Positions 2,712-63,599 of a stretch of 64,000 nt of DNA are shown one piece after another (positions within the stretch are counted from its first letter, which is position 1; each line of letters begins with the position of its first letter). The translations under genes were made by a program, and so were the position numbers. Source of the stretch: a virus. Location: positions 32,001-96,000 of the IMG/VR virus record IMGVR_UViG_3300008050_000022; one strand, given 5' to 3'. The notes below the pieces were generated by a model. It did no database searches and had not been told where the DNA came from. It was given only the letters and a program-made list of their open reading frames with translations.

Positions 2712-2740
2712 TGCAAGAACCCGTAGCAGGTCGGCATAAG
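2712..2740 (+). promoter_or_regulatory. Phage promoter motif TGCAAG-N18-ATAAG
   Basis: tgcaagaacccgtagcaggtcggcataag, at the head of the replication operon; the same bipartite motif recurs at several sites. Confidence 0.7.
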
Positions 2741-2770
2741 ACAGGTAATGGAGATTACTTAGGAGGTTCC

Positions 2771-3154
2771 ATGTCCGACATTCCCCGACTACGTAGAGTA
2801 CCAACCTGTTTCGGAGATGCCGAGGCTTACGACCCTGATCACAAGGAGTGTAAAGCCTGCGACGTCAGAGTGCGCTGCAAAGTGCGAGTCCGAAACGCAT
2901 CAAAGTTGAAGAAAGGCAAATCGTCGTCATCCTCGAACTCCGTGGCCGTTAGATCACGGAACAAGGTGTCCAAGCACGATGATGACGATGCGGCTGAGTT
3001 CCGCACAGCAAAGACCCGTACCAAGGGCTGGTGGGGCGCACTGAGCCACAACGCGTTCATCAGGATGTCTTCTACATTCCTGAGAGAAGCCGCGTTCGGA
3101 GTAGAGCAGATCCCTCTCGAACCTTACTCGGACGAGGAGCTAGAAGATGACTGA
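2771..3154 (+). CDS. Hypothetical protein with N-terminal Cys cluster (Zn-binding)
   Basis: AGGAGG RBS and ATG at 2771 (the track start at 2123 is an upstream extension); C-x13-C-x2-C-x5-C. Confidence 0.75.
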   Translation: MSDIPRLRRVPTCFGDAEAYDPDHKECKACDVRVRCKVRVRNASKLKKGKSSSSSNSVAVRSRNKVSKHDDDDAAEFRTAKTRTKGWWGALSHNAFIRMSSTFLREAAFGVEQIPLEPYSDEELEDD

Positions 3155-3593
3155 TGTCGGAGCCATGATCCGCACGCACCGCAAGCGGATGTTCAAATAC
3201 CGCAGCGATGCAGCCAAGCTGATCATGATCGACAGGGGCGGAGGAATCCGTACCCACATGAGTAGAGAAGGTCTCCGCAAGCTGGAGGAGAACCTCAACC
3301 TTCCCAGCGCAGAAGTCCTCAACGAGATCATCTCCAAGTGGGGGCTGGACTTGGCAGAGGCGGAGAATCTGAGGAGAGCAGTTCACGTACAACACCAGCG
3401 TCGGGCTGGATACGAGGAACCGACCACAATCAACCCGTTGGGGAACGACATCGAATCCCTGATCAACACGACCATAGGAGCCATCGTGCGAGACGTATCA
3501 GTAGTGCTCGAGAGTAGGGGGGTGGACGTCAAGGAGATCTCGCAAGACCTGTTCGAGATCGTAGAAGTCCACATCAAGTCCAGCTTCAGATGA
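3147..3593 (+). CDS. XRE-like helix-turn-helix DNA-binding protein
   Basis: G-x-x-I-R-x-x-R...SREGLRKLEENLNLPSAEVLNEI pattern typical of Cro/C1 HTH; coupled to its neighbours. Confidence 0.55.
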   Translation: MTDVGAMIRTHRKRMFKYRSDAAKLIMIDRGGGIRTHMSREGLRKLEENLNLPSAEVLNEIISKWGLDLAEAENLRRAVHVQHQRRAGYEEPTTINPLGNDIESLINTTIGAIVRDVSVVLESRGVDVKEISQDLFEIVEVHIKSSFR

Positions 3594-4930
3594 GCGACGA
3601 CGTACTGCAGTTCTGTCGTAGAGACCCGGGAGTCGCCTACCTGGACGCCGACCTCTGGTTGCCTCTCTCAGAGGTGCCAGTACGTGGAATCCAGCAGCGG
3701 CTCACCTTCACCATGTTCAGTGGGAGAAAGAGAGACATCCCCACCGACATCGAGATCTTCTCGATGGCGAAGCATCACATTCAGGTTCCTCGAAACCTGT
3801 TCACCCTCAAGTACGTAAGGCATGCGTACGGCATCGAGATCGTAGATCTCCGGCCTTCCTCTTACCCCCCCACAACAATCCTCCACTCCATCATCCCCAG
3901 AGACAACCAGACCGAGCCCCTGCGACTCATGGAGGAGCTGGGGGATGGGACGTTGAATCTAGCTTGCGGACTGGGGAAGACGGTGGTGGCGCTCTACCAC
4001 GCCGTGAGGCTAGGCGTCCCGACCCTGGTGATCTGCAACAACACGACCATCCTCGCCGGGTGGGAGAGGGAGATCATTGGAAAGCTGGACTTCGAGGGGA
4101 AAGTCGGCTGGGTCAAGCAGAACAAGTTCCCCGAGGACACTCCGATCTGCTTGGCCACGGTGCAGACCCTGGCGAGTAAGGCGGACGTGCTTCCCAGATC
4201 GTTCCTACGCCGGTGGGGCCTCGTCATCTTCGACGAGGGGCACCACATGTCGGCGAACTGGTTCTGCACGGTGGCCAACCTCTTCCCGGGGAAGCGGCTA
4301 GCCTTGACGGCTACCACGACCCGCAATGATGGGCTGGAAAAGGTCTACCAGTATCACCTGGGGAAGGTCTTCTACTCGGACCTGAGCCAGGATCTAGAGC
4401 CTGAGATCGAGTTCGTACACCTGCATGGACTCCGTCCAGCTAGGGAGTACTCGGAAGACGTGGCTCTGAAGAACTGGATCGCCAGGAACGCAGAGTTCAA
4501 CCAGGTCATCACTGAGGAAGTGAGGACGCTGCTTCAGGAAGGGCGGAGCATCCTCGCCCTGTCTCACCGGGTAGAGCAACTCGAGCTACTCCATCCGACG
4601 TTGCCTGGAAGCGGGCTGATTCACGGAGTGATCAAGGACTCCGCCAGGGAAGAAGCCTTGAGCGAAGCAAACCCCATTCTGGCGACCATGCAATTGGCGC
4701 AGGAAGGACTGGATAAGCCCTCACTGGACACCCTGCTCTGCCTGACGTTGTTCTCGAACGAGAATGCCTTCCAGCAGTGCGTGGGTAGAATTTTGAGGAC
4801 TTACGAGGACAAGAAACACCCACGAGCTCTGTTCTTCGTGCCGGATGTTCGTCGCTGCCAGAAGCAGGCTGCGAGGATCCGTCGGTTCGCGAAGATGCGG
4901 GGCTACAAGATCAAGGAGACGAGAAGATGA
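3590..4930 (+). CDS. Superfamily 2 DNA helicase (UvsW/XPB-like)
   Basis: Motif I CGLGKT, II DEGHH, III TAT, V EGLD, VI QCVGRILR. Confidence 0.92.
   Translation: MSDDVLQFCRRDPGVAYLDADLWLPLSEVPVRGIQQRLTFTMFSGRKRDIPTDIEIFSMAKHHIQVPRNLFTLKYVRHAYGIEIVDLRPSSYPPTTILHSIIPRDNQTEPLRLMEELGDGTLNLACGLGKTVVALYHAVRLGVPTLVICNNTTILAGWEREIIGKLDFEGKVGWVKQNKFPEDTPICLATVQTLASKADVLPRSFLRRWGLVIFDEGHHMSANWFCTVANLFPGKRLALTATTTRNDGLEKVYQYHLGKVFYSDLSQDLEPEIEFVHLHGLRPAREYSEDVALKNWIARNAEFNQVITEEVRTLLQEGRSILALSHRVEQLELLHPTLPGSGLIHGVIKDSAREEALSEANPILATMQLAQEGLDKPSLDTLLCLTLFSNENAFQQCVGRILRTYEDKKHPRALFFVPDVRRCQKQAARIRRFAKMRGYKIKETRR
4689..4717 (+). promoter_or_regulatory. Internal phage promoter motif TGCAAT-N18-ATAAG
   Basis: Same spacing as the other copies; inside the helicase 3' end, upstream of the 4927 gene. 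Confidence 0.45.
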
Positions 4931-5322
4931 GCAAGCGAGAATCAAAGCAGGCGATCGTTGCTAGTGGGGGCTCCCACTACATCGGCGAGATCTGGAAGGG
5001 GTCTACCCCGACGGAAATCCGCGACGCCACCCCCATCTTTGGGGGTCATGTGTCTACCCAGGATGGCCGTGTGGCGTTGCAGGTGATGACCCCTCCCTAC
5101 GGGTGTGCCGAAGGGGTCATCAAGACCCTGCACCTGGGCTCCGTGGACAACTGGGTCTTCGTAGAGGAGTTGAGCACTTACGATCAGCAGACCGTCAAGG
5201 ACTTCCTGGAGAGGAGGGCTGTGGCCGACGATGCTCGTAGGGCATCCGAGGCAGGACTCGTGCTTCCCAGAGACATGTCTCCGGAAGACATGTCCAAGGT
5301 AGTCCGTGGGGCTCGTGGGTGA
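4927..5322 (+). CDS. Hypothetical protein
   Basis: ATGA/GTGA coupling with both neighbours, AGGAG RBS, coding-like codon use. Confidence 0.75.
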   Translation: MSKRESKQAIVASGGSHYIGEIWKGSTPTEIRDATPIFGGHVSTQDGRVALQVMTPPYGCAEGVIKTLHLGSVDNWVFVEELSTYDQQTVKDFLERRAVADDARRASEAGLVLPRDMSPEDMSKVVRGARG

Positions 5323-6065
5323 AGTCCCTCGAGGTTCTGTACGAGACCTACGTCGAGGGTGAGTGCGATCTGTGTCCCAGACTAGTTGAGAGTCGGAGCT
5401 CCATCGTGTTCGGCGAGGGAGACACCGACGCTGACCTGGTGATCGTGGGAGAGGGTCCTGGAAGGATTGAGGATGAGATCTGTCGTACCTTTGCGGGTTC
5501 GGCAGGTCTCCTGCTCGACACCTTCCTGACCTACTTCGCAAGAGCCGATGAAGAATGGCTTCACGGCATGGGACGCAGGATGACCTCGGGCTACAAGCCC
5601 TCCGATGCAGAGTCAGACGAGATCAGGGACGCACTAGTGGCGTCCGAGAAGATCTTCTACCTCAATGCCGTCATGTGCCGGCCTCCCGAGAACGTGGATC
5701 CCACGGCAGCGGAGCTCCGAAACTGCGAAGAGCGGCTTCATCAGACGATCTACAACATCGATCCGCTTCTAGTCCTGGCTGTGGGCAAGGTCGCCTCCAA
5801 GGCGGTCCTTGGAAAGCAGCTTTCCATCACCAAGGACAGGGGACAGCTCTTCGACGTTGAAATCATGGGAGTGACCGGAGGCATCAGATACCCCCTACTG
5901 GTTACGCTCCATCCCGCCTACGTGGCGAGGGTGGGGAATTACACCAGTCCAACCAGTCCGGGCCAGAAGTTCGCTCAGGACATCGAGAAGGCGTTCGGCC
6001 TCCTGGACGAAGCCCGGCTTCTAACCAGGGATGAGCCCCTTCCCAAGAGGAGAAAATGGAAATGA
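5319..6065 (+). CDS. Uracil-DNA glycosylase, family 4 (Fe-S type)
   Basis: CxxC...VFGEG...IVGEGPG..ED, CRPPEN..P...E..NC and C-terminal HPA motif; roughly 40-aa insertion. Confidence 0.9.
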   Translation: MKSLEVLYETYVEGECDLCPRLVESRSSIVFGEGDTDADLVIVGEGPGRIEDEICRTFAGSAGLLLDTFLTYFARADEEWLHGMGRRMTSGYKPSDAESDEIRDALVASEKIFYLNAVMCRPPENVDPTAAELRNCEERLHQTIYNIDPLLVLAVGKVASKAVLGKQLSITKDRGQLFDVEIMGVTGGIRYPLLVTLHPAYVARVGNYTSPTSPGQKFAQDIEKAFGLLDEARLLTRDEPLPKRRKWK

Positions 6066-6523
6066 GTGATGATCTAGGTCGAGTAGCGGAGTCGGCAATC
6101 GAGGCCTTTGAAGAGGCCGATGAGGACCTGAGAGAGATCTCCGCAGAGGTACGAGAATGCCTGGGGGAGGATCTGTGGAACGCCTGGATGGAGTCCATCG
6201 ATCTGCGTCGGAGGCGCTGCAAGGATGCCCAGATGGCTGTGCGAGCAGCTGGGGACTCCATGGGGCCCTTCACCGTGACGAAGAGAGGGAAGAACGTCTG
6301 GGACAACAGCCGAGCTGTTCAGCTCTCGAGCGACCGAGACGAGTGGGATGACCTCGTAGAAGGCGGCGTCATCAAGCAGTCCTTCGACCACAAGCGTGCC
6401 CAGGCTGTGCTCGATCCCGCCGTCTTCGCTATCTACAAGGACCGCTGCCACAAGTACGAGGCGGGAGCCAGCACGGCTGTCAGCGGCCCGAAGGTCGATG
6501 ACGATGTCTTCTCCCTCCTCTAG
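6062..6523 (+). CDS. Hypothetical protein
   Basis: ATGA overlap with the UDG stop; GAGGAG RBS. Confidence 0.75.
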   Translation: MSDDLGRVAESAIEAFEEADEDLREISAEVRECLGEDLWNAWMESIDLRRRRCKDAQMAVRAAGDSMGPFTVTKRGKNVWDNSRAVQLSSDRDEWDDLVEGGVIKQSFDHKRAQAVLDPAVFAIYKDRCHKYEAGASTAVSGPKVDDDVFSLL

Positions 6524-6629
6524 CTACAGGTCTCCGTTAGTCAAAATCCAACTACGTCGTTGGGCTGTCGAGAAGGGTCTAGACCCTATCGAACAGGTCA
6601 GTGATGATGTTCAACCCTCGAGGAGCCAA

Positions 6630-6872
6630 ATGGACACTGCGAAGAAATTGCTGGGGGCCGGAGATGCCCGAGTCAGCGCTGGGGTCGACCTGGCGCTGAA
6701 GGACTTCGGGGACGGGTACGGAGTACACGTCTCGGTGAGTCTGAGCTGCGACCAGAAGGACAAGGTGCTGGAAGATGCGATGGAACTGGCCAAGGAGATT
6801 GCTCATGGCACAGCGGAGATCCACCTGGAGGAGGCAGCAGCCCTCTTCGAGCACATGACGGCCAAGAAGTAG
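6630..6872 (+). CDS. Hypothetical protein (80 aa)
   Basis: GAGGAG RBS before ATG 6630 (MDTAKKLLG...). Confidence 0.7.
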   Translation: MDTAKKLLGAGDARVSAGVDLALKDFGDGYGVHVSVSLSCDQKDKVLEDAMELAKEIAHGTAEIHLEEAAALFEHMTAKK

Positions 6873-7118
6873 ATGCCAATCTCGGTACAGGATCATGAGC
6901 TGTTCACCTCAGAGCTCCTGAACTTGACCGTTGACCGGACTCCGGGCGCTGATTTCTTCTCTCTAGAGATCAGCGTCCGGATCGTCAACAAATCCACCGG
7001 AGCCTCGGCGGTCATGAAACTTGTGGATCTCCCGACGGAGATCCAGGAGGATCTACGACTAGTGCTGGCAGGGATAGAACTCCACAGCGGATCGAGGTTC
7101 TTCGGTGATATCCAATAA
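6873..7118 (+). CDS. Hypothetical protein
   Basis: Abuts the previous stop and fills the operon gap. Confidence 0.65.
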   Translation: MPISVQDHELFTSELLNLTVDRTPGADFFSLEISVRIVNKSTGASAVMKLVDLPTEIQEDLRLVLAGIELHSGSRFFGDIQ

Positions 7119-7130
7119 CAGGAGGAGTAG

Positions 7131-8573
7131 ATGGGGCTGGAAGCCACGCTGATCAGTAACGTGCTCAAGCGGCACGAGTTCAAACCGCTGGTCAAGGCGG
7201 GTTTGACAGAGGAAGATTTCGAGACCCTCGAGGGCAAGGACTGGTTCCGGCATATCTCGAGGATCTACTTCTCTAGAACTACGTACGGGGAGGTTCCCTC
7301 CCTGGAGTCGTTCAAGAGGAAGTTCCGCAGTTTCGACTTCAGGCCGTCCAAGGACTCCTTGACCTCGCTGTGTCAGGAAATCATCAACCGCAACATGTCC
7401 AACGACGCCTCGCTTCTCTGCGAAGAGATGCTGGATGACCTGGACGCAGACGACCTCGACGACGCCATGTCCAAGGTAGCCGCCTTCCTGACCAGGTGGC
7501 AGACCCGGAAGGCGGAGGGCGGGGACATCGATCTATCTCAGAGCGTCAAGATGCTCCGGGAGCAATACGAGCGGGTAGCCAGTGCTGAAGGGATGCTCGG
7601 CATCCCTTGGCCTTGGGAGCCTGTGAACAGAGAGACCTTGGGGATGCAGTCCGGGCAGCTGGTCCTGCTGTATGGCAGACCGAAGCACATGAAGACGTGG
7701 GTGGCCCTGTACATCGCCATCAACGCCTATCTGTATCACCACGCGAGAGTCCTCTTCTACAGCCGAGAGATGAACAAGATGCAGCTTCTGCTGCGAGGTA
7801 CGTCGATCATCTGTGAGGTGGACTACGGGACGCTGAAACGGGGGGAGCTGCCTCCCTCCGTCAAGAAGGACGTCTTCGCCACCATGGAAGACCTGGCGGA
7901 GTCAGACGGTGACTTGAAGCGGGCAGACGGGCGCCGTAGCGCCTTCATCATCAGCAACGACCGGGGGCCCAACCACGGAGCCACCGTGCGAATGCTGGTG
8001 GAGAAAGCCAAGGAGGTGGATGCAGATCTGCTGGTAGTGGATGCGGTCTACAAGCTGGCTGACGGGAGAACGAAGAACAGGGACGCCAAGTGGACTACTC
8101 AGGTCAACATCATGCAGGACCTCAAGGATGCTGCTGTGGACCTGGAGATTCCGGTGATCGCTGTGACTCAGGCCAACCGGAAGGCAGCGAAGAGCGCGAA
8201 GAACGTGGACACGGATGAAGCAGCGTTCACGGACTCGGCCGGCATGGAGTGCGACTTCATGCTCAGGGTGATCAAGAGCAAGGACGCCGACACCGGTAAG
8301 TCCGAGCTCACCTTGTGCTGGCCTGCTGCTCGAGATGAGGAGCTTTACCCCATGCTGATCCACGGACAGCCAGGGAACAACTTCTCGGTCAAGCAGGAGC
8401 GTCTGACAGACGAGGACCTGGAGGACAGGGCCAAGGCAGCTGACGCTCAAGACGAGGAAGAGAACAAGAAGAACAAGCGGTCCTCTAGGGCCGGCCCTGG
8501 TAGGCGATCTGGTGGGGGCCGTGGAGCTCTCGCACAGGCAAGGACGGGGGCGAAGAGAAAGAAGAGTAAGTGA
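7131..8573 (+). CDS. dnaB: DnaB-like replicative DNA helicase
   Basis: AGGAGG RBS; Walker A GRPKHMKT, YSREM, Walker B LVVDAVY, TQANR motif. Confidence 0.88.
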   Translation: MGLEATLISNVLKRHEFKPLVKAGLTEEDFETLEGKDWFRHISRIYFSRTTYGEVPSLESFKRKFRSFDFRPSKDSLTSLCQEIINRNMSNDASLLCEEMLDDLDADDLDDAMSKVAAFLTRWQTRKAEGGDIDLSQSVKMLREQYERVASAEGMLGIPWPWEPVNRETLGMQSGQLVLLYGRPKHMKTWVALYIAINAYLYHHARVLFYSREMNKMQLLLRGTSIICEVDYGTLKRGELPPSVKKDVFATMEDLAESDGDLKRADGRRSAFIISNDRGPNHGATVRMLVEKAKEVDADLLVVDAVYKLADGRTKNRDAKWTTQVNIMQDLKDAAVDLEIPVIAVTQANRKAAKSAKNVDTDEAAFTDSAGMECDFMLRVIKSKDADTGKSELTLCWPAARDEELYPMLIHGQPGNNFSVKQERLTDEDLEDRAKAADAQDEEENKKNKRSSRAGPGRRSGGGRGALAQARTGAKRKKSK

Positions 8574-9556
8574 ATGTAGCGACCTTCGTTCAGCAGGTCG
8601 TAGATAAGCACATAGACGGCGCGAGGTTGGTGGGGGATGGGGAGTTCGCAGCTCCCTGTCCATTCCACCAAGACTCGTCGCCGTCTTTCTTCATCAACCG
8701 AAAGACCGGTCTCTGGATCTGCCACGCAGGGTGCGGCAGCGGGTCCTTGCCGTACTTGCTTCGCAAGCTCGGGTACGGACGAGGTCAGGTTGATAAGGCC
8801 CTAGCTCCCATAGCCGACGATCTGAAGTCGAAGAAGGAGGCGAGGCCACGTCTACGATCCCCCCTCAACCCGTTCATAGCCGCACACCCACTGCCCGAGG
8901 CACACCTCGGAGCCTACGACGTCAAGCAGCCTGTAGAGGAGTTGGTCAGGAAGGGGTTCGACCCCACGATCCTGACTGACTACGACGTAGGTTTCGACCG
9001 AGTCAACAAACGCATCACGTTCCCGGTGCGTGATCTGTACGGGAATCTATCTGGCATAAGTGGCAGGGCCACACTTCGTGGTCAGAAACCCAAATACAAG
9101 TTCTACGCATCCGAACTAGAGGAGGTCTATCCGGGCTACACGTTTGAGCGTCAGAGGCATCTTTGGAATGCCGATCGAATCTACCCCACCTTGTACTTTG
9201 CAGACGCGCCAGAAGAAGAAGAAATCCTTGTAGTAGAGGGATTCAAAGCGTGTCTGTGGCTGCTACAATGTGGCTTCAGTAATGCGGTGGCGACATTGGG
9301 ATCCTCCCTGTCGCGCACCCAGGCAGCGCTACTCCACAGGATGGGCTGCCGCATAACCCTGTTCATGGACAACGACCGTCCTGGTCGTGAGAAGACTCAA
9401 CACGCATTGAAGCAACTCTGGGGTGCGATCTCCGACATACGGGAGGTTGAATACCCGTACGACGCCTTCGCGCAACCAGACGACTTCGATGAAGAAGAGC
9501 TCCAAGAACTGATCGAAAATGCCGTGCCAATCATTCCACGGCGCAGGAGAGACTAG
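8570..9556 (+). CDS. dnaG: DNA primase (CHC2 Zn finger + TOPRIM)
   Basis: CPFHQDSSPSF...CHAGCG zinc finger; RITFPVRD, KYK, VVEG and MDND TOPRIM motifs. Confidence 0.9.
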   Translation: MNVATFVQQVVDKHIDGARLVGDGEFAAPCPFHQDSSPSFFINRKTGLWICHAGCGSGSLPYLLRKLGYGRGQVDKALAPIADDLKSKKEARPRLRSPLNPFIAAHPLPEAHLGAYDVKQPVEELVRKGFDPTILTDYDVGFDRVNKRITFPVRDLYGNLSGISGRATLRGQKPKYKFYASELEEVYPGYTFERQRHLWNADRIYPTLYFADAPEEEEILVVEGFKACLWLLQCGFSNAVATLGSSLSRTQAALLHRMGCRITLFMDNDRPGREKTQHALKQLWGAISDIREVEYPYDAFAQPDDFDEEELQELIENAVPIIPRRRRD

Positions 9557-10839: not shown

Positions 10840-10850
10840 CAACCCCTAAG

Positions 10851-10880
10851 GAGGGGAGGGGCCTTCGGGCCCCTCCCCTC
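10851..10880 (+). terminator. 13-bp GC hairpin with UUCG loop (terminator/attenuator or stability element)
   Basis: GAGGGGAGGGGCC-TTCG-GGCCCCTCCCCTC; no U-tract; directly before the polymerase RBS. Confidence 0.6.
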
Positions 10881-10889
10881 GGAGGCGTA

Positions 10890-12917: not shown

Positions 12918-12929
12918 TCTATTTCCCCC

Positions 12930-56908: not shown

Positions 56909-57294
56909 TGGGGGCAGACCTGATCTTGGCCTACGCCGAAGTCCCTGAGCCCTTCACCGATGGCACGGTGGGGGAGCTCCGGGCACTAGCAGCGAATCCA
57001 CCGAACCTCCTGTTCGACATGGTGGCGGATAGGTTGGAGTACGACGACGAAGCTGACTCGAGAGCAGATGTGACGGACAGGCTTCGTACTGCCGTCGACG
57101 TCGTGTTCGTCGAGTATTACCACCGAGGAGGTATGCACCGAGAGCTGGCCACCATTGCCATCCGCGATCGTGAGTACATCTTCACTGGCGGTATGTCGTG
57201 GGGAGATCTGCCCTCGGACGTCTACGAGGACGTCTGTATGGCAGCGATGCTGTCGGAGATGTTGATCAAACGAAACGAACAGTCAGGGTCGTAG
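56908..57294 (+). CDS. Hypothetical protein
   Basis: TAATG coupling; MGAD..., TGGMSWGD.PS. Confidence 0.7.
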   Translation: MGADLILAYAEVPEPFTDGTVGELRALAANPPNLLFDMVADRLEYDDEADSRADVTDRLRTAVDVVFVEYYHRGGMHRELATIAIRDREYIFTGGMSWGDLPSDVYEDVCMAAMLSEMLIKRNEQSGS

Positions 57295-57308
57295 GGATCC
57301 TGGCTTCC

Positions 57309-57336
57309 GGGATCCCCTTCTTCGGAGGGGGATCCC
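57309..57336 (+). terminator. GC hairpin with UUCG loop
   Basis: GGGATCCCCTTC-TTCG-GAGGGGGATCCC after the gene cluster. Confidence 0.5.
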
Positions 57337-57515
57337 ATAACGGGCATGTAGACGCTGAAGGAGGAAAGATGCCGAATCTCAAAGCCCTAAATCGAGTGTC
57401 AGAAAAAGAGGATAAACCACTGAAATACCTCAGTTAAATAGGTACCTCAACAGAGGACAATAGTAGCCTGTGTCCGGCGGAGCCGGGCACCAATACTTAG
57501 CCCTAAAAACCCGCC

Positions 57516-57543
57516 TGAAAGACTGCACCATCTAGGGGATAAG
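57516..57543 (+). promoter_or_regulatory. Phage promoter motif TGAAAG-N17-ATAAG
   Basis: tgaaagactgcaccatctaggggataag, upstream of the ligase-rIIA-rIIB operon. Confidence 0.7.
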
Positions 57544-57590
57544 GACTCTGTGGAGACACAGGGACCTACCCCTGAAGGAGGTATCTACAA

Positions 57591-59054
57591 ATGGCGTGGA
57601 ATGGATCGACAAGAGAGTTTAGACAGACGGGTCGCAAGCACACTCTGGTGTGGAAGATCCGGGTAGTCAGCGCGACTGAGACTACCTGGCACGGAACCTT
57701 GGACGGGCAGCTGCAGAAGACGTCCCACACTTACGGCGGTGTGAACAGGGGCAAGGCGAACGCGCTTTCCCCCTCCGAGAACGCCGTACTGAAGGCGGAG
57801 AGGAAGATCACTCTGAAGACTCGCTCCGGGTACCTGGAGTACGAGGACGGTCGACCCCTTCGAGGGGGTCGAGCAGACAAGATCGACCCCGAGCGGCCCC
57901 TCCCCAGCAACCTCTGCTTCTACAAGCCCGACAACTCCTTGGGGGCGGGGCTGAAGAAGAAGGCTCGTTCCGGCGACGCACTCTTCTTCAGGAAGCGGGA
58001 CGGCATGATGTACGTCCTCCGCACCACGGAGGATGACGTGGAGTTCTACTCCCGCCGCATGATGCCCAGCATGGACAAGGAGCCCGAGCGGGACTGGGCA
58101 GAGAGGCTTCCGTACATCTACGAGGAGGCCGTTCAGGCGCTCTACGATGGAACTCTGGCCCCGAACAGCATCGTGCTGGGAGAGCTCGTAGCGGATCGTG
58201 ACGGACAGGACGACTTCAAGGGAGTGGCTGAAGTCATCAAGTCCTCCACGGGCAAGGCTCTCTCCCGTCAGCAGACGAGCGGGTTCCTCAAGTTCTACCC
58301 GTGGGACATCGCACTGTGGGACGGAGAGCCTGTAGTCAAGACCCGTCCGTTCAGCGAGCGGCTGGGAACCTTGCAGGGGCTCGTAGCCCGGAGCACGGAG
58401 GGGTTCGCAGAGCCCGAAGTCTTCACTGGCAAGGACATCTGGGATGACGGCATCCCTGCCGTGATCTCCCTAGCCGCAGAAGACGGGATTGAGCTCCACT
58501 TTCGAAAGACGCTCTCCGAGTACCCGGTGGCCAAGTTCGAGGACTCCTCTGGGACGATCCGAGAGGTGCTGTTGGACGGCATCGCCAAGAGCCTGGCTTC
58601 TCAGTTCGACTGGGAGGGGTGGGTAGTAGTCGATCCCAAGGGAGTCTACGGCGAGAAGGGCTTCAACTTCCGAGGCAAGGCAGATCGTCCCGGCAGGTTC
58701 GTCGGGAAGCTGAAGCCTTCCTACGAGGACGACTTCGTAGGTCTGTGGGAGCCCGACAAGGGAATCGGTACGTGGGGTACGGGCCGACACCAGAAGCAGG
58801 TAGGCAGCCTGGGCCTCTACCAGCTGGACAGGAACGATGAGCTGGTTTTCATCTGCAACTGCGGGGGAGGGCTAACCGACGCCATGAAGGCGAGGCTGAT
58901 CGATCCAGACGAGTACCCGGTGGTGGTGCGGGCGGAGTACGACTCCCGCACCTACATCACGCAAGGAGGCAAGACGAACGCTCTCAGGTTCCCCCGTGTG
59001 GTGGCCCTGAGAGACGACAAGACCGCTGAAGAGTGCATCAACATGAAGCTGTAG
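57591..59054 (+). CDS. ATP-dependent DNA ligase with N-terminal WGR-like domain
   Basis: Motif I RKRDG, III LGEL, IIIa FYPWDI, IV WEGWVV, V KLKP, VI LRFPR..LRDDK; AAGGAGG RBS. Confidence 0.88.
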   Translation: MAWNGSTREFRQTGRKHTLVWKIRVVSATETTWHGTLDGQLQKTSHTYGGVNRGKANALSPSENAVLKAERKITLKTRSGYLEYEDGRPLRGGRADKIDPERPLPSNLCFYKPDNSLGAGLKKKARSGDALFFRKRDGMMYVLRTTEDDVEFYSRRMMPSMDKEPERDWAERLPYIYEEAVQALYDGTLAPNSIVLGELVADRDGQDDFKGVAEVIKSSTGKALSRQQTSGFLKFYPWDIALWDGEPVVKTRPFSERLGTLQGLVARSTEGFAEPEVFTGKDIWDDGIPAVISLAAEDGIELHFRKTLSEYPVAKFEDSSGTIREVLLDGIAKSLASQFDWEGWVVVDPKGVYGEKGFNFRGKADRPGRFVGKLKPSYEDDFVGLWEPDKGIGTWGTGRHQKQVGSLGLYQLDRNDELVFICNCGGGLTDAMKARLIDPDEYPVVVRAEYDSRTYITQGGKTNALRFPRVVALRDDKTAEECINMKL

Positions 59055-59064
59055 GAGAGCATCG

Positions 59065-61146
59065 GTGATACCGAGCAGAAAGACTAGAGCCGTCACTAGT
59101 GGCGGAGTGATGACCCAGGGGGTCTTCGGGATCAGCGACCAGGATCAAGCCCACATCCTGCAGATTCTCCGAGACCGCCTCTACACCAACAAGATCCTGG
59201 CCGTCCTAAGGGAGTACGGCTCCAATGCGTGGGATGAGCACCGTGATGCGGGCACCCCCGACCGACCGATCAAGGTCGTCCTTCCGACCAGGCTGGTTCC
59301 CGCCCTAGTCATTCGTGACTACGGGCGGGGGCTGTCGGAGGACGACGTCCTCAACGTCTACGTCAAGTACGGTGCCTCTACCAAGAGGGATGCGGACGTG
59401 GCCGTAGGCATGTTGGGGATCGGGGCCAAGTCCGCGTTCGCTTACGCAGACAGCTTCACCGTCACCTCCTTCCAGGCGGGCGTGAAGTCTATCTACGTGG
59501 CGGTCCTGGACGAGTCCGACGTGGGCGTGATCAACAAGCTGGGCGAGGCTCCGTGCAAGGCGGACGAAACTGGCGTCGAGATCAAGGTTCAGGTCGATCC
59601 GAAGGACATCTGGGACTTCCAGCGGGAAGCTGCTGCCCTGTTCCCCTTCTTCAACCCGCAGCCCGTCATCAACCTGGAACTGCCGAAGCTCGAGCTGGAC
59701 AAGAACAGCGCGGGGTTCGTCTACGCAGAGCAGTTCGACGGACTGGATCAGTGGGTAGCTGTGATGGGCTGCGTCCCGTACCGAATCGACTTCACCTCGG
59801 TGAGTGATCGGCTTCGGGACGCAGGACTCCTAGGCTTCTCGCGTGCTGCAAGAGGCGGCCTGCTCTTCGACATCGGAGATGTGGACGTTGCGGCCAACCG
59901 GGAAGGTCTCGAGTACACCGAGGACACGAAGAACGGGATCGTAGAGAGGCTAGGAGATCTCAGAGACGAGATCATCAAGGACCTCGCCAAGTCGGTAGAC
60001 GATCCAACCCTGTCGCACTGGGAACGGCGCCACAAAGTACTCCGGCTGATGACTGCTAGAGGACTGAGCGGGTTGCGAGAGGCCGCCAAGGGCTACGAAT
60101 CCAGCTCCGTGACCATCATTCCGGCGGATCCAAAGGAGGCTCCCAAGGAGTTTCGTCTCCGTCACCTCCAGAAGCCTGGGTACAAGAAGCGAGCATGGAC
60201 CCTGGAGAGCATTCGCAGAATCGAAGTTGATGTGGGCACCCGTTTCATCATCCGAGACAACGCGAAGAACTCCAGGGGGTACTACGAGTCGAACAGCGAT
60301 CGGTTCATCCTCCCCATCAACGGAGTGGATGATGCAGAGAAGGAGCTGCTGGAAGTACTGGAGAAGCACAAGCTGACAGGGGTTCCGGTTCTCCGGGCCT
60401 CCAAGATGACCTACGTGCCCTTCTCGACATCCTCCCGTAACTACGGGCCGTCGAACTCCAAGTACAACCAGCGAACCTTCGTACTGAGCCGTGACGAGTA
60501 CTTCTCCTACGACTCCAAGGACTGGAGTAAGGCGGAGATCCCTCTGGACAAGGACGATGTGTTCGTGATCTTGGAGAAGTTCAAGTCCTGCACCGCAAGG
60601 TTCTACCAGCGCGTCGACATAGCTCGAGATCTGGCGAAGCTCTTCAAGGAGCCCCTGCCAGACTTCTACGGACTGCGGAGCACGCAGACCAAGCCTGTCT
60701 ATGCGGACGACGTAGACGCGATCCCGTTCACAGAGTGGTACGAGTCGTACCTGGATGACCTTCTCCGGCTACCCAGGGCAAAGTACCTGGCACGGGCCTA
60801 CGCCTGGACCAGCTCCGTCGGATCCACTGCCGACACTACGGGGGTCGAGAAGCTCCTAGGCAAGAAGCATCGGATATCGAAGTTCCTCCGCACTGATAGG
60901 GAGTACAGAAAGGCTCTCTACGCAGCACAGAACGTCAACGCTGGCGCACTGTGGGAGCGGTCCAAGCAAGCCCACCCCAAGTCTGCTCCAGGCGAAGCAG
61001 GGCGGGACCTCGTTCGGGACATCAAGCAGCGCTACCCGCTGCTCCAGGTAAACAACCCCGCCTTCAACATGGATCAGCTCACCAGTCGGCACGCGGCTGA
61101 CTGGATTGAGTACATCCAACTAGTCGACAGCCAGAGGAAGAAATGA
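59065..61146 (+). CDS. rIIA: rIIA-like protein (GHKL/Hsp90-type ATPase N-domain)
   Basis: LYTNKILAVLREYGSNAWD, IRDYGRGLS, YGASTKR, GMLGIGAKS, NREGLEYT. Confidence 0.85.
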   Translation: MIPSRKTRAVTSGGVMTQGVFGISDQDQAHILQILRDRLYTNKILAVLREYGSNAWDEHRDAGTPDRPIKVVLPTRLVPALVIRDYGRGLSEDDVLNVYVKYGASTKRDADVAVGMLGIGAKSAFAYADSFTVTSFQAGVKSIYVAVLDESDVGVINKLGEAPCKADETGVEIKVQVDPKDIWDFQREAAALFPFFNPQPVINLELPKLELDKNSAGFVYAEQFDGLDQWVAVMGCVPYRIDFTSVSDRLRDAGLLGFSRAARGGLLFDIGDVDVAANREGLEYTEDTKNGIVERLGDLRDEIIKDLAKSVDDPTLSHWERRHKVLRLMTARGLSGLREAAKGYESSSVTIIPADPKEAPKEFRLRHLQKPGYKKRAWTLESIRRIEVDVGTRFIIRDNAKNSRGYYESNSDRFILPINGVDDAEKELLEVLEKHKLTGVPVLRASKMTYVPFSTSSRNYGPSNSKYNQRTFVLSRDEYFSYDSKDWSKAEIPLDKDDVFVILEKFKSCTARFYQRVDIARDLAKLFKEPLPDFYGLRSTQTKPVYADDVDAIPFTEWYESYLDDLLRLPRAKYLARAYAWTSSVGSTADTTGVEKLLGKKHRISKFLRTDREYRKALYAAQNVNAGALWERSKQAHPKSAPGEAGRDLVRDIKQRYPLLQVNNPAFNMDQLTSRHAADWIEYIQLVDSQRKK

Positions 61147-62147
61147 CAGCAACACCGGCATACACGCAGACCAACGAGTCCATCACGGTGGTTCTCGAGG
61201 GCACCCCGTACACCATCAAGCGAGAACAGAAGAACTGGGACGCGGTGAAGACCGCGGTCTTCCACGAGGACTGGGAGGAGCTCGCTCGCATGATCTCCCC
61301 CAAGATCCCCATCGAGCAGTGGGCTTCGGGCGAGTTCACCGTGCAGGACAACCTGATCTTCTACAACAGCGAGCCCATCGACCAGAGGCTCAACGAGCGC
61401 ATCCTGGAGATGGCAGAGGCGGGAGATGATCCCAGCTTCATGTTCGCCTTCTGGAAGCGGCTCCAGCTGAACCCGTCCTCCCGATCGGTGGCCCAGCTCT
61501 ACCCCTTCATGGCCCACCAGGGCATCCCGATCGTCGAAGGTGGGTACTTCCTGGCCTACAAGGGCGTCAAGGATGACTACACCGACTGCCACACTGGGAA
61601 GGTGGACAACAAGCCTGGCACGGTCAACGAGATGCGGCGCAACCGCATCAGCGATGACCCGAACTACGCATGCCACTACGGCTTCCACGTCGGAGACGAG
61701 AGCTACGCCACCTCCTTCGGGAGCCGCACCGTGGTGGTCAAGGTCGATCCGGCCGACGTGGTCTGCATCCCCTACGACTCCGGCCAGCGCAAGATGCGGG
61801 TCTGTAAGTACGAGGTGGTTGGGCACTACGGAGGTCAGCTCCTGCCCAGCACCACGTTCGAGGAGGGGAAGGTCGAGGAGATGGACTCCTCTGGTGTGGA
61901 CGAGGCCGATGTGGTCGACGAGTCGGAAGCAGAGCCAGTCAGGTTCTGGGTGGCCGGTGTGGCGGTGAGCGGGTGGGAGGACTTCCACAAGCTCTCCGAC
62001 GGAGTCCTGGCTACTCAGAAGCTGGGAGACCTGCGGAAGTACGCCTCCAAGGTGTGCCAGATCGTAGGTGCCAGCAAGCTGCGGGGAGGCAAGTCTGCTC
62101 TCCTGGAGAAGCTGTATCAGGTCCGTGCTGATCTCGGAGTCAGCTAG
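61143..62147 (+). CDS. rIIB: rIIB-like protein
   Basis: NPS.RSV.QLY.F, GYFLAYKGV..DYTD, M.R..ISDDP..AC..GFHVG, VKVDPADVV.IP.D...KMRVC.YEV; follows rIIA. Confidence 0.88.
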   Translation: MTATPAYTQTNESITVVLEGTPYTIKREQKNWDAVKTAVFHEDWEELARMISPKIPIEQWASGEFTVQDNLIFYNSEPIDQRLNERILEMAEAGDDPSFMFAFWKRLQLNPSSRSVAQLYPFMAHQGIPIVEGGYFLAYKGVKDDYTDCHTGKVDNKPGTVNEMRRNRISDDPNYACHYGFHVGDESYATSFGSRTVVVKVDPADVVCIPYDSGQRKMRVCKYEVVGHYGGQLLPSTTFEEGKVEEMDSSGVDEADVVDESEAEPVRFWVAGVAVSGWEDFHKLSDGVLATQKLGDLRKYASKVCQIVGASKLRGGKSALLEKLYQVRADLGVS

Positions 62148-62154
62148 AACGTGA

Positions 62155-62195
62155 GATAGGGGAGGGGCTTCGGCCCCTCCCCTATCCTCTTTCTT
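62155..62195 (+). terminator. Rho-independent terminator
   Basis: GATAGGGGAGGGGC-TTCG-GCCCCTCCCCTATC followed by CTCTTTCTT. Confidence 0.75.
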
Positions 62196-62211
62196 AGCTT
62201 ACGCTGCCCTC

Positions 62212-62673
62212 ATGTCACGACGACCCTATGTCTCGACCTACTTCTCCCCGAACCGTGGCTCTGCGGCCACTATCGAGGGATTCATCCGGAACACTCAGTC
62301 CACTCTGGACATAGCCATCTACGCCCTGACGCATGAGAGCATCGGGAAGGCAGTCGTAGCAGCGCACAAACGAGGGGTCGCTGTCCGCCTCCTAGTGGAC
62401 AAGGTGCAGGCTGCCGGCAGGTACTCCATCGTCGCCAGGATGATGGTCGAAGGAGTACCTACCAGGCTGGACCACCAGAGCGGTTCGATGCACCACAAGA
62501 TGGCGATCTCCGATGCTCTGCTCCCCTCTCGAGCGGTCGCCCTTGGCAGCTTCAACTGGACCAAGAACGCCGACGAGAGGAACGCAGAGTCACTAGTGAT
62601 CGTCCGACTACGTGCCGTGACCAGTGCGTGTACCAAGGAGTACGAGCAGCTCTGGGAGGCGAACTCCCCTTAG
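62212..62673 (+). CDS. Phospholipase D-family (Nuc-like) nuclease, single HKD domain
   Basis: YFSP, LDIAIY.LT, A.KRGV.VR, MHHKMAISD, GSFNWT..A...N.E. Confidence 0.85.
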   Translation: MSRRPYVSTYFSPNRGSAATIEGFIRNTQSTLDIAIYALTHESIGKAVVAAHKRGVAVRLLVDKVQAAGRYSIVARMMVEGVPTRLDHQSGSMHHKMAISDALLPSRAVALGSFNWTKNADERNAESLVIVRLRAVTSACTKEYEQLWEANSP

Positions 62674-62691
62674 GCCGCCTCACCAACCGAG

Positions 62692-62871
62692 CTACAGGGG
62701 CGTCTCTGTCCGACACGAGCCACACTTGCCACACCGCAAGGAGTTGTCGTGCTTCTGCCGAACCAGCGTGCCTCCGCACTTGCACCGCAGGTTGTTCAGG
62801 CCGCCCTTGGGAGCCTGCACGATCCCAGTACGACCGTTGTTCACCACCTTGACGATTCGCCTCTTCTTCAT
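62692..62871 (-). CDS. 59-aa basic Zn-ribbon protein (below the ORF-track cutoff)
   Basis: GGAGG RBS; MKKRRIVKVVNNGRTGIVQAPKGGLNNLRCKCGGTLVRQKHDNSLRCGKCGSCRTETPL. Confidence 0.65.
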   Translation of the reverse strand: MKKRRIVKVVNNGRTGIVQAPKGGLNNLRCKCGGTLVRQKHDNSLRCGKCGSCRTETPL

Positions 62872-62872
62872 C

Positions 62873-63340
62873 TCAACCTCCGAAGACTTCTGCCGCTGGG
62901 GGATGCGAGCCTAGCGCAGACAGGTCGTGCGGGGCGTCGTCTACTGCGCCCATCGCCTTCAGGACAGCATCGCCCTTCTCGGCCCGCTCTGCCTCGAGCT
63001 GAGCCTCGGCCTCGGCCAACTTCTTCTTGGCCTCTCGCTCCTCGCGGAAGACTCTGATGGCCTCCTCTCGTCGCTCCCTCTGAGACGTGGCGAACTGGAG
63101 GAACTCTTCCTCGGTGAGGAGGTTCTTGTCGATCAGGACATCGACCACGGCGTTGACTCGATCGTTCTGGGCATCAACCACAGCTGCCGAAGCTTGAACG
63201 ATCTGTCCGAGCCTCGCCATGTTGATTTCCATCGATTCGTTCACGGCGTTGCGGAACTTGTCCAGCGCCTCCGTGACGAAGACGAACATCCGCTTCTCGA
63301 GCCTCGCCAGTAGGTCCTTCTTCGTACCCTTGCTCATCAC
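62873..63340 (-). CDS. Hypothetical coiled-coil protein
   Basis: Coding-like codons; coupled to the upstream gene. Confidence 0.7.
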   Translation of the reverse strand: MMSKGTKKDLLARLEKRMFVFVTEALDKFRNAVNESMEINMARLGQIVQASAAVVDAQNDRVNAVVDVLIDKNLLTEEEFLQFATSQRERREEAIRVFREEREAKKKLAEAEAQLEAERAEKGDAVLKAMGAVDDAPHDLSALGSHPPAAEVFGG

Positions 63341-63570
63341 ACGTCCCGGTTCAGTAGTTCTTCCAGGGCCTCTTGCAGCTCCTGGAGGGCGGAGTCCAGC
63401 TCCTCAGCTACCTCATTCACATGAGCCAGCTCGACGTCTCGGAGATTCACGATCGGATCATCGTCTCCGGTGGGGAGGAGATCCGAATCGAGCTTCTCTC
63501 GAAGGTGTGACCATACGCCGATCAGCCCTTCAAGGTGCGCGATCTCTTCTAGAAGTTCTTTTGCCTTCAC
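63337..63570 (-). CDS. Small acidic helical hypothetical protein
   Basis: AAGGGG RBS, GTG start. Confidence 0.65.
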   Translation of the reverse strand: MKAKELLEEIAHLEGLIGVWSHLREKLDSDLLPTGDDDPIVNLRDVELAHVNEVAEELDSALQELQEALEELLNRDV

Positions 63571-63599
63571 CGCAAATCCCCTTGGTGCTCAGGTATAAG
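63571..63599 (+). promoter_or_regulatory. Phage promoter motif CGCAAA-N18-ATAAG
   Basis: cgcaaatccccttggtgctcaggtataag, immediately before a structured non-coding stretch. Confidence 0.55.

What the first reader, a model, noticed from the sequence alone, without database searches (positions are those of the whole stretch)
2712..63599. Strand-specific bipartite promoter motif YGNAAR-N17/18-ATAAG
Copies seen by eye on the plus strand: TGCAAG 2712/ATAAG 2736; TGCAAT 4689/4713; TGGAAA 15978/16002; TGAAAG 17828/17852; TGAAAG 55384/55408; TGAAAG 57516/57539; CGCAAA 63571/63595. There is also a -10-only copy, CGGCATAAGAC at 14387, before recA. About half of the plus-strand ATAAG pentamers I noticed have the hexamer at this fixed distance. 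Intragenic copies use AT-rich codons unusual for this genome. I found no complete copy on the minus strand.
Basis: seen in the sequence. Interest (0 to 1): 0.75.

Follow-up and report, generated by a model that had tools for sequence, protein, structure and literature searches.

The report
Phage-private two-box ATAAG promoter
The repeated word is a real two-part transcription start signal that this large uncultured phage and its relatives (as far as Salmonella phage Arash) place before their replication and accessory genes. It is most likely read by the phage's own sigma factor and own bacterial-type RNA polymerase, not by the host's.

Summary
Observation confirmed. TGNAA-N18/19-ATAAG occurs 6 times on the + strand and 0 times on the - strand of the 106-kb contig; shuffles give 0.11. 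All 9 are co-directional with non-virion genes.

In promoter coordinates the motif is a sigma70-family promoter:
- -35 hexamer YGNAAR;
- 17±1 bp spacer;
- extended -10 (C)GG-N-ATAAG, which is TATAAT with G at -7;
- a conserved T/purine 7 nt downstream, the likely -1/+1.

The same signal recurs in 11 of 16 other related IMG/VR records plus two whole relatives, and in cultured phage Arash (36 vs 7 by strand). It co-occurs with a divergent sigma factor (window 45472-46263, -) and a single-chain beta-beta' RNA polymerase.

Arash virions carry the homologous sigma, beta and beta', so delivery of the enzyme in the virion is plausible but not shown.

Corrections:
- The motif follows gene direction, not strand.
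- The recA copy has a -35 box.
- The 4689 copy is doubtful.

No paper with this consensus was found. This scan has already reported the same promoter type on other phage genomes.

The parts
2712..2740 (+). Promoter copy TGCAAG-N18-(GGC)ATAAG. It lies in the divergent gap between the minus-strand head operon and the + strand replication module, 31 nt before gene 2771-3154.
   Evidence: Cross-genome matrix score 24.0. The head of the replication module carries a copy in G014 (17539) and G002 (155192) as well.
4689..4717 (+). Doubtful copy TGCAAT-N18-(TGG)ATAAG inside the SNF2/ResIII helicase gene, 210 nt before gene 4927.
   Evidence: The -35 block scores 8.2 but the -10 block scores -5.6, total 2.6. 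It has T at -14, a C-rich discriminator and C at the predicted +1.
14368..14395 (+). Promoter copy CGGAAC-N17-(GGC)ATAAG in the 3' end of a 59-codon gene, 78 nt before recA (14473-15711).
   Evidence: Score 17.4. Both boxes are unchanged in two metagenome contigs whose RecA is 80-81% identical, with one synonymous change in the spacer. RecA by Pfam.
15978..16006 (+). Intragenic promoter copy TGGAAA-N18-(AGG)ATAAG, 182 nt before gene 16188-17027.
   Evidence: Score 14.6; the null gives 0.7 hits per genome at 14 or above. Uses minor codons GAA and GAT.
17828..17856 (+). Intragenic promoter copy TGAAAG-N18-(GCT)ATAAG inside a RusA-like gene, 185 nt before ORF 18041-18418.
   Evidence: Score 24.0. 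Minor codons AAA 0.06 and TAT 0.07. ORF listed.
26128..26157 (+). Weak look-alike GGGAAC-N19-(CGC)ATAAG, antisense inside a minus-strand gene. Probably chance.
   Evidence: Score 8.8, below the level reached about 3 times per random genome.
55384..55412 (+). Promoter copy TGAAAG-N18-(GGG)ATAAG, 14 nt upstream of the start (55370) of the 1138-aa minus gene. Its transcript would run antisense through the conserved 92-aa minus gene 55414-55692 before reaching gene 55758.
   Evidence: Score 21.5. The same junction carries a copy in G014 (92798) and G002 (10369). The 92-aa gene has homologues in L005, L009 and L012.
57516..57543 (+). Promoter copy TGAAAG-N17-(GGG)ATAAG, 48 nt before the ATP-dependent DNA ligase gene (57591-59054) and about 180 nt after a strong hairpin.
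   Evidence: Score 17.8. Ligase identified. GTCAAG-N18-ATAAG lies directly before the ligase in L001, L010 and L011.
63571..63599 (+). Best-scoring copy CGCAAA-N18-(GGT)ATAAG. It has no + strand gene behind it and points into the 3' end of a conserved 256-aa minus gene, as an antisense or orphan promoter.
   Evidence: Score 28.8. The same arrangement and the same first transcribed bases (ATAAGTGGARTGGTCGG) occur in G002 at 40895. G014 has a copy at 96410 beside the homologous gene. No Rfam family or tRNA lies downstream.
45472..46263 (-). Phage sigma factor gene, the candidate reader of the motif. It sits inside a tightly packed minus-strand virion-type operon that has no ATAAG promoter.
   Evidence: Pfam Sigma70_r3 above its cut-off and a weak r4 match. 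PHROG 351 sigma factor, E 3.6e-13. A family profile matches RpoS, SigA, SigB and FliA chains over regions 2-4, E 6e-12. 30.6% identical to Arash Gp10. No motif lies upstream in G000 or G014.
2771..19786 (+). Target unit 1, the replication and recombination module: SNF2 helicase, UDG, DnaB, primase, PolA, RecA, RusA-like.
   Evidence: Pfam results. Gene map.
55758..62673 (+). Target unit 2: Api92-like protein, small ORFs, DNA ligase, rIIA-like HATPase protein, PLD nuclease.
   Evidence: Gene map.
57309..57336 (+). GC-rich hairpin closing the unit upstream of the ligase promoter. Similar hairpins lie at 10851-10880, 19514-19572 and 62153-62189.
   Evidence: RNAfold energies of -28 to -55 kcal/mol for the four regions. 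None is followed by a T run, so the terminator scan did not list them.

Best explanation
The motif is the promoter of a phage-private transcription system. Each good copy is a sigma70-family two-box promoter.

If the conserved purine 7 nt after ATAAG is taken as +1, the parts fall as follows:
- YGNAAR occupies -35 to -30.
- The spacer is 17±1 bp.
- The -10 region reads (C)G(-14)G(-13)N(-12)A(-11)T A A G(-7). This is the extended -10 TGnTATAAT with G in place of the near-invariant T at -7.

The copies head the + strand, non-virion units of this genome: replication, recombination and accessory genes. A few internal copies boost expression within the long replication operon.

The sigma and polymerase genes sit in virion-type operons that lack the motif. 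In the cultured relative Arash, the homologous sigma, beta and beta' are abundant virion proteins. The holoenzyme is therefore probably packaged and injected, and fires these promoters early in infection. The G at -7 would keep the phage and host promoter sets apart.

Shown here: the motif, its statistics, geometry, placement and conservation, and its co-occurrence with the sigma and polymerase genes.

Inferred, with my odds:
- that these sites start transcription: about 0.9;
- that the phage sigma reads them: about 0.75;
- that the core enzyme is the phage polymerase: about 0.55;
- that the enzyme is delivered in the virion and acts early: about 0.45.
For: **Enrichment and strand purity**
- 6 copies on +, 0 on -, against 0.11 expected.
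- A matrix trained on G002 and G014 finds 9 sites at 13.6 bits or more in this contig, all on +. Random sequence gives 0.7 per genome at 14 or more.

**Features I did not search for**
- G at -14 in 37 of 41 sites and at -13 in 36 of 41.
- T at -1 in 26 of 41 and a purine at +1 in 39 of 41.
- Anchoring on GGNATAAG alone recovers A at -32 and -31 in 33 and 30 of 43 sites. ATAAG without the GG shows no -35 box, and GGNATAA followed by a base other than G is rare, 7 against 43.
- Sixteen further loci repeat this: 25 against 6 by strand, and A in 19 and 21 of 25.

**Placement**
- In G014 there are 21 copies on + and 2 on -. Nearly all are intergenic, 40-85 nt before start codons.
- GGATAAG is the top 7-mer in G014 upstream regions, enriched 32-fold.

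**Family-wide counts**
- The strict pattern GNAA-N15-17-GGNATAAG gives 63 hits in 16 other records, on a single strand in all matching records except G018 (13/2).
- The reversed-pattern control gives 7. Shifting the spacing by +3 gives 4.
- Arash has GGNATAAG 36 times on its early-gene strand against 7 on the other. Its consensus is tGGTATAAGtaaaGTGTA, followed by a ribosome site.

**Link to the phage enzyme**
- Sigma homologues occur in 15 of 18 records and in 8 of 8 complete ones.
- The polymerase occurs in 16 of 19 records and in 8 of 8 complete ones.
- G017 has neither and shows only chance-level hits.
- G002 and G014 have only this one detectable sigma.
- Arash virion proteomics found Gp10 sigma, Gp206 beta and Gp216 beta' (PMC10585845).

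**Against host promoters**
- sigma70-type promoter matches are not enriched: 4 against 3.9, 0 against 4.0, and 3 against 4.2 expected.
Against: - No transcription start, binding or expression data exist for this phage or for any relative.
- The link between sigma and motif rests on co-occurrence, not on a test.
- Nothing here shows that the phage sigma binds the phage polymerase and not the host core enzyme.
- Four sigma- and polymerase-bearing records (G003, G005, G008, G012) have no strict-pattern hit, so the extended -10 varies within the family.
- Intragenic sites are not conserved in position in G002 or G014.
- I found no promoter for the operons that hold the sigma and polymerase genes, so how the system starts up is unresolved.
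- Earlier notes of this scan say that in some relatives the sigma gene itself lies behind an ATAAG promoter (not checked by me). That would weaken the virion-delivery argument.
Confidence: 0.75

Rival explanations
1. The phage sigma reads the motif but recruits the host core RNA polymerase, as SPO1 gp28 or T4 gp55 do. The phage's own polymerase would then serve another gene class, or use no sigma.
For: - All well-studied phage sigma factors work with host core enzyme (established knowledge).
- Recent reviews state that known phage multisubunit polymerases lack sigma (PMC13282480, PMC7824862).
- No test here shows a contact between the phage sigma and the phage polymerase.
Against: - Sigma and polymerase co-occur in 8 of 8 complete relatives.
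- Both are abundant in Arash virions.
- The sigma is very divergent from host sigmas: NCBIfam scores of 26-31 bits against cut-offs of 190-234.
Confidence: 0.2
2. The sites are host promoters read by a host alternative sigma of the FliA/sigma28 type, whose promoters share A(-32)A(-31)G(-30) and A(-11)TAA(-8).
For: The geometry equals (-36)TCTAAAG(-30) ... (-15)GCCGATAA(-8) of sigma28 promoters (PMC12784957).
Against: - The -15 to -12 part is (C)GGN, not GCCG.
- In Arash, whose host is Salmonella, the base before ATAA is T in 30 of 36 sites, not the G of CGATAA.
- G at -7 is conserved and -34 is G, not T.
- The motif tracks the phage sigma across relatives of 47-67% GC and is at chance level in a record that lacks that sigma.
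Confidence: 0.04
3. The word is not a promoter. It would be an operator for a phage DNA-binding regulator, or a replication or packaging signal that happens to lie upstream of genes.
For: - No start site has been mapped.
- Three copies (26128, 55384, 63571) face minus-strand genes and not an adjacent + gene.
Against: - There are two boxes at exactly the sigma70-family distance.
- The conserved pyrimidine/purine pair sits 7 nt downstream.
- Orientation is constant relative to the downstream genes, and sites lie 28-80 nt before start codons in four genomes.
- Shifting the spacing by 3 nt abolishes the signal.
Confidence: 0.03

Closest known systems
Extended -10 promoters of bacterial sigma70-family holoenzymes (TGnTATAAT, with or without TTGACA)
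   Same: - Hexamers at -35 to -30 and -12 to -7 with a 17±1 bp spacer.
- G at -14 and A at -11.
- A start about 7 nt after the -10 hexamer at a pyrimidine/purine step.
- Arash's consensus tGGTATAAG differs from TGnTATAAT only at the last base.
   Different: - G replaces the near-invariant T at -7.
- -13 is also G.
- The -35 box is YGNAAR, not TTGACA.
Sigma28 (FliA/WhiG, group 3) promoters: (-36)TCTAAAG(-30) ... (-15)GCCGATAA(-8) (PMC12784957)
   Same: - ATAA at -11 to -8.
- AA(G) at -32 to -30.
- The same box-to-box distance.
- A long -10 that extends upstream.
- The phage sigma is group-3-like in size and domains.
   Different: - GGN in place of CCG at -14 to -12.
- A conserved extra G at -7.
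- G instead of T at -34.
- The sigma does not reach the FliA/WhiG model cut-off (26 against 190 bits).
Promoters of phage-encoded sigma factors that use the host core enzyme (SPO1 gp28 and gp33/34, phiEco32 gp36, T4 gp55); named from my own knowledge and from the abstracts listed
   Same: A phage-encoded sigma-family protein gives a phage gene class its own promoter word, distinct from the host's.
   Different: - Those phages have no RNA polymerase of their own.
- Their sigma-dependent classes are middle or late genes.
- Here the class is the non-virion genes, and the phage also encodes beta-beta'.
Virion and non-virion multisubunit RNA polymerases of phiKZ-like and AR9-like jumbo phages and their promoters (PMC7598289, PMC5449584, PMC13282480)
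   Same: The phage encodes a bacterial-type polymerase. Relatives of the present phage package it in the virion (Arash). Transcription would not depend on host sigma70.
   Different: - Those enzymes are split into 4-5 polypeptides and have no sigma70-family subunit. They use gp68 or gp226 instead.
- Their promoters are short AT-rich or uracil-dependent single elements, not two-box sigma-type promoters.

Membership tests
sigma70-family two-box promoter | Two conserved boxes centred near -35 and -10, separated by 16-18 bp | tested here: met
   Gaps of 17, 18 or 19 nt between the hexamer and ATAAG occur in 9, 21 and 11 of 41 sites. This equals a 16-18 bp spacer to the hexamer NATAAG. Shifting the spacing by +3 removes the signal.
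sigma70-family two-box promoter | -10 hexamer with A at -11 and T at -7 | tested here: not met
   A at -11 is invariant, but -7 is G. GGNATAA followed by G occurs 43 times; followed by any other base, 7 times.
sigma70-family two-box promoter | Transcription starts 6-8 nt after the -10 hexamer, usually at a purine | not testable with these tools
   Indirect only: T at the sixth and a purine at the seventh base after ATAAG in 26 and 39 of 41 sites, and in 28 and 34 of 36 Arash sites.
sigma70-family two-box promoter | Lies upstream of, and points the same way as, the genes it serves | tested here: met
   All + strand units of the contig are headed by a copy, including contig positions 11390 and 27165 outside the window.
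Extended -10 promoter (TGn) | G at -14 (with T at -15) directly upstream of the -10 hexamer | tested here: met
   G at -14 in 37 of 41 sites. -15 is C in 24 of 41 here and T in 19 of 36 in Arash.
Sigma28 (FliA) promoter | -10 element GCCGATAA with the GC extended -10 pair and G at -12 | tested here: not met
   -14/-13 are GG. -12 is G 22, C 10, T 9 of 41 here, and T in 30 of 36 in Arash. The reference sequence comes from PMC12784957.
Sigma28 (FliA) promoter | -35 element TCTAAAG, including T at -34 | tested here: not met
   Only AA(R) at -32 to -30 is shared. With the -10 as the only anchor, -34 is G in 21 of 43 sites and T in 2 of 43.
Sigma70 protein family (the presumed reader) | Regions 2, 3 and 4 in order | tested here: met
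   - Pfam r3 at 27.1 bits, above its 25.3 cut-off. r4 is weak at 16.6 bits.
- A profile of 14 family members aligns to RpoS, SigA, SigB and FliA chains over profile positions 45-236 of 238, E 6e-12.
- PHROG 351, E 3.6e-13.
FliA/WhiG or SigB/F/G subfamilies (the presumed reader) | Score above the curated NCBIfam cut-off | tested here: not met
   SigBFG 30.9 bits against 234. FliA_WhiG 26.2 bits against 189.6.
Virion-delivered RNA polymerase system | Polymerase and specificity factor present in the particle and injected | not testable with these tools
   Known only for the relative Arash, by mass spectrometry. Here there is only gene position inside virion-type operons that lack the motif.

The most novel reading that the evidence does not exclude
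These sites are the early promoters of a fully self-contained, particle-delivered bacterial-type holoenzyme: a single-chain beta-beta' plus a true sigma70-family factor, with no alpha or omega. Its promoter code is kept apart from the host's by one base, G instead of T at -7. This would be the first phage multisubunit polymerase shown to use a genuine sigma factor.
Probability: 0.4. Interest if true: 0.8.

Novelty: new variant of a known kind. Interest (0 to 1): 0.62.

Why it matters
Reviews of phage transcription describe two groups: phages with their own multisubunit polymerase and no sigma, and phages with a sigma and no polymerase. This lineage has both. It also has a clear, conserved promoter word that ties the system to a gene class.

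The consensus makes the system directly testable, because a cultured member exists. Arash on Salmonella carries about 30 near-identical tGGTATAAG-N5-GTGTA sites.

If the G at -7 is the discriminating base, it offers three things:
- a natural example of how a sigma factor re-tunes recognition of the -10 element;
- an orthogonal promoter and sigma pair;
- a simple rule for annotating transcription units in many uncultured 100-200 kb phages.

Tried and rejected
- **Close relatives.** The contigs with 82% and 74% identical ligases could not be fetched. The only close-relative footprint is the recA site, in two short metagenome contigs.
- **Single-protein locus searches.** megablast against phages and a single-protein scan of viral contigs found nothing. 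An alignment-based scan was needed.
- **A non-coding RNA or small ORF behind the 63571 copy.** There is no Rfam family or tRNA. The 30-codon ORF is not conserved in G002. Only the first 12 or so transcribed bases are shared, and these match the general start-region consensus.
- **A second, late promoter for the minus-strand virion, sigma and polymerase operons.**
  - The sigma70-type scan shows no enrichment.
  - k-mer enrichment gives only ribosome-site words.
  - A Gibbs sampler gives 4.2-4.7 bits against 4.1-4.4 in shuffled controls.
  - A TAGCGG-like word seen by eye before three operons was not pursued, because it was chosen after the fact.
- **Positional conservation of the intragenic copies in G002 and G014.** Not found.
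- **ATAAG avoidance in genes.** Observed counts are 16 sense and 2 antisense, against 42.8 and 16.2 in synonymous shuffles. The effect is real but not specific, because other pentamers of the same composition are equally rare.
- **A homologue of Arash's second sigma, gp196.** None in G000, G002 or G014.

Full report
**Setting**

The window is bases 32001-96000 of a single 105,937-bp virus contig with 60% GC. CheckV rates the contig 56% complete. My own gene calls give these blocks:
- long minus-strand blocks of large, mostly unannotatable proteins;
- a 2067-aa gene that carries both Rpb2 (beta) and Rpb1 (beta') Pfam domains (contig 20912-27115);
- a sigma-factor gene (window 45472-46263, minus);
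- + strand blocks that hold an SNF2 helicase, UDG, DnaB, primase, PolA, RecA, a RusA-like protein, an ATP-dependent ligase, an rIIA-like ATPase and a PLD nuclease.

**The observation**

Counts in the whole contig are:

| Pattern | + strand | - strand | Expected |
|---|---|---|---|
| TGNAA-N18/19-ATAAG | 6 | 0 | mean 0.11, maximum 3, in 300 dinucleotide shuffles |
| GNAA-N18-20-ATAA | 10 | 0 | about 2.1 per strand |

All ten hits of the looser pattern are followed by G, which I had not required.

Four copies are intergenic. The intragenic ones exceed the synonymous-codon null of 0.18.

**What the motif looks like when it is not imposed**

I pooled 41 sites from this contig and two complete relatives. 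Positions I had not searched for are conserved:
- G at the third base before ATAAG in 37 of 41 sites, and at the second in 36 of 41;
- C at the fourth base before ATAAG in 24 of 41;
- T at the sixth base after ATAAG in 26 of 41;
- a purine at the seventh base after ATAAG in 39 of 41.

Anchoring on GGNATAAG alone gives 38 sites on the gene strand against 5 on the other. It recovers A at 21 and 20 nt upstream in 33 and 30 of 43 sites. ATAAG without the GG shows no upstream box. GGNATAA followed by a base other than G is rare, 7 against 43.

If the conserved purine is +1, the parts fall at canonical sigma70-family positions:
- the hexamer YGNAAR at -35 to -30;
- a spacer of 17±1 bp;
- the -10 region (C)G(-14)G(-13)N A(-11)TAA G(-7).

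This is the extended -10 consensus TGnTATAAT with G in place of T at -7. It also shares A(-32)A(-31)G(-30) and A(-11)TAA(-8) with sigma28 promoters, whose elements I checked in PMC12784957. It differs from sigma28 promoters at -34, at -14 to -12 and at -7.

**Which copies in the window are good**

A two-block matrix trained only on G002 and G014 finds nine sites of 13.6 bits or more in this contig, all on the + strand. Random Markov sequence gives 0.7 per genome at 14 or more.

| Site (window, except where noted) | Score (bits) |
|---|---|
| 63571 | 28.8 |
| 2712 | 24.0 |
| 17828 | 24.0 |
| 55384 | 21.5 |
| 57516 | 17.8 |
| 14368 (the recA copy, which does have a -35 box) | 17.4 |
| contig 27165 | 17.0 |
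| 15978 | 14.6 |
| contig 11390 | 13.6 |

The two contig sites outside the window have TGACA(A/G) one base further upstream, and each heads a short + strand unit. So every + strand unit of the contig starts with a copy.

A look-alike at 26128 scores 8.8. Both are doubtful.

Strong GC-rich hairpins without T runs close the + strand units, at 10851-10880, 19514-19572, 57309-57336 and 62153-62189.

**Relatives**

An alignment of ligase homologues brought in 18 IMG/VR loci. These are 94-340 kb records apart from one 50-kb fragment, with GC from 47 to 67%.
- Fifteen of the 18 records, and 8 of the 8 that are at least 90% complete, encode a homologue of the sigma at 33-46% identity.
- Sixteen of 19 records, Arash included, and 8 of 8 complete ones encode the polymerase as one chain or split.

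I fetched two complete relatives whole. Counts of NGNAAN-N17-19-ATAAG are:
- G002: 10 on one strand, 0 on the other;
- G014: 21 and 2. Nearly all are intergenic and 40-85 nt before start codons, many in a region of small ORFs that each have their own copy. The two copies on the other strand precede genes on that strand.

Without any prior motif, GGATAAG and GGGATAA are the most enriched 7-mers in G014 upstream regions, at 32-fold.

In the 16 remaining records the strict pattern GNAA-N15-17-GGNATAAG gives 63 hits, on a single strand in all matching records except G018 (13/2). The reversed-pattern control gives 7, and the same pattern with the spacing shifted by three bases gives 4. G017 has neither the sigma nor the polymerase and is at chance level. 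Four sigma-bearing records have no strict hit, and L008 shows GTCATAAG or CGCATAAG instead. The -14/-13 pair therefore drifts within the family.

Three positions are kept across G000, G002 and G014:
- the head of the replication module;
- the divergent junction beside the 1138-aa gene;
- a copy that points into the 3' end of a conserved 256-aa gene.

In two short metagenome contigs whose RecA is 80-81% identical, both boxes of the recA site are unchanged. The only difference is one synonymous change in the spacer, while the 20 nt after it differ at about half the positions.

**The cultured relative**

Salmonella phage Arash (OQ632216, 53% GC) has a sigma, Gp10, that is 30.6% identical to this one. 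As here, the gene lies among structural genes.

Arash carries GGNATAAG 36 times on the strand of its non-structural genes and 7 times on the other. The consensus is tGGTATAAG-taaa-GTGTAaac, usually followed by a ribosome site about 25 nt later. Its -35 region is looser and A-rich, CCAATAA-like.

The Arash paper reports Gp10 sigma, Gp206 beta and Gp216 beta' among the most abundant virion proteins. It does not mention promoters (PMC10585845).

Arash has a second sigma, gp196. It has no detectable homologue in G000, G002 or G014. The only sigma shared by all genomes that share the motif is therefore the Gp10 type.

**Mechanism**

The best-supported reading is a phage-private promoter class read by the phage sigma. 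Which core enzyme it uses is not shown.

Three points favour the phage polymerase:
- sigma and polymerase co-occur;
- both are found in Arash virions;
- the sigma is very far from host sigmas.

One point favours host core: every characterised phage sigma uses it.

The sigma and polymerase genes sit in packed operons without the motif, in both G000 and G014. If the enzyme is not delivered in the particle, something else must transcribe those operons first. I found no candidate promoter for them.

Host FliA is unlikely. In Arash, whose host's FliA consensus is known, the base before ATAA is T and not G. The GCC of the long -10 is replaced by GG, and the motif follows the phage sigma across very different GC contents.

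**Literature and earlier scan notes**

Searches found no paper that describes this consensus or a sigma-dependent phage multisubunit polymerase. Two reviews state that phage polymerases of this kind lack sigma.

Notes of this scan show that the same promoter type has already been reported by other follow-ups on at least seven other phage genomes, with the same reading. I reached the -7 G and sigma28 comparisons from my own alignments. I checked the one paper those notes named.

Some notes say that in other relatives the sigma gene lies behind an ATAAG promoter, or that virion genes use host-type promoters. Neither holds in this contig.

**Verdict**

This is a new variant of a known kind, a sigma70-family promoter with a phage-specific code. 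It belongs to a transcription system that has not been tested at the bench.

Noticed in passing
window 63571-64005 (also G002 40895 and G014 96410): The best-scoring promoter copy has no gene behind it. It points into the 3' end of a conserved 256-aa minus-strand gene of unknown function. The arrangement is the same in three genomes, which suggests a conserved antisense transcript.
   Followed up: partly
window 55413-55757: A transcript from the 55384 promoter must cross about 340 nt antisense to a conserved 92-aa minus gene (55414-55692) before it reaches the first + gene. That minus gene is the first in the operon that also holds the sigma gene. Early transcription could therefore interfere with the sigma and virion operon.
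   Followed up: partly
L041-L044 (Arash record positions 26768, 66515, 100271, 138618, 173392, minus strand): Five identical copies of a repeat of at least 104 nt lie 34-40 kb apart on the early-gene strand. Each contains TTATATAAG and several TATATA words. Their function is unknown.
   Followed up: partly
L041-L044 (Arash, for example record 109207-109281, 137585-137659, 139330-139440): A word ccTAAAATA lies 20-30 nt before several + strand structural genes. In three divergent gaps it directly abuts the reverse complement of GGTATAAG. It is a candidate late promoter arranged back to back with the early one. I saw no equivalent in G000 or G014.
   Followed up: partly
L043:20656-21693 (Arash gp196): Arash has a second, RpoS-like sigma (Pfam r2 at 42 bits). 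It is absent from the virion protein list excerpted from the paper and has no homologue in G000, G002 or G014.
   Followed up: partly
window 10851-10880, 19514-19572, 57309-57336, 62153-62189: Very stable GC-rich hairpins (-28 to -55 kcal/mol for the folded regions) end the + strand units. None is followed by a T run. The one at 62153 is followed by ctctttcTTAGC, and TTAGCC also precedes several promoters in G002 and G014 and the 57516 copy. This may be a phage-specific terminator signal.
   Followed up: partly
whole contig: ATAAG is strongly avoided inside genes, above all in antisense: 2 observed against 16.2±3.9 in synonymous shuffles, and 16 against 42.8 in sense. Other A/T-rich pentamers of the same composition are about as rare, so this is not specific evidence.
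   Followed up: yes
window 18041-18418: A 125-aa Cys-rich ORF (CxxC pairs) that my gene caller missed fills most of the 'gap' after the RusA-like gene. It is the first gene behind the 17828 copy.
   Followed up: no
window 20001-40000: No sigma70-type promoter match at all, against 4.0±1.9 expected, in the block of giant minus-strand genes.
   Followed up: no
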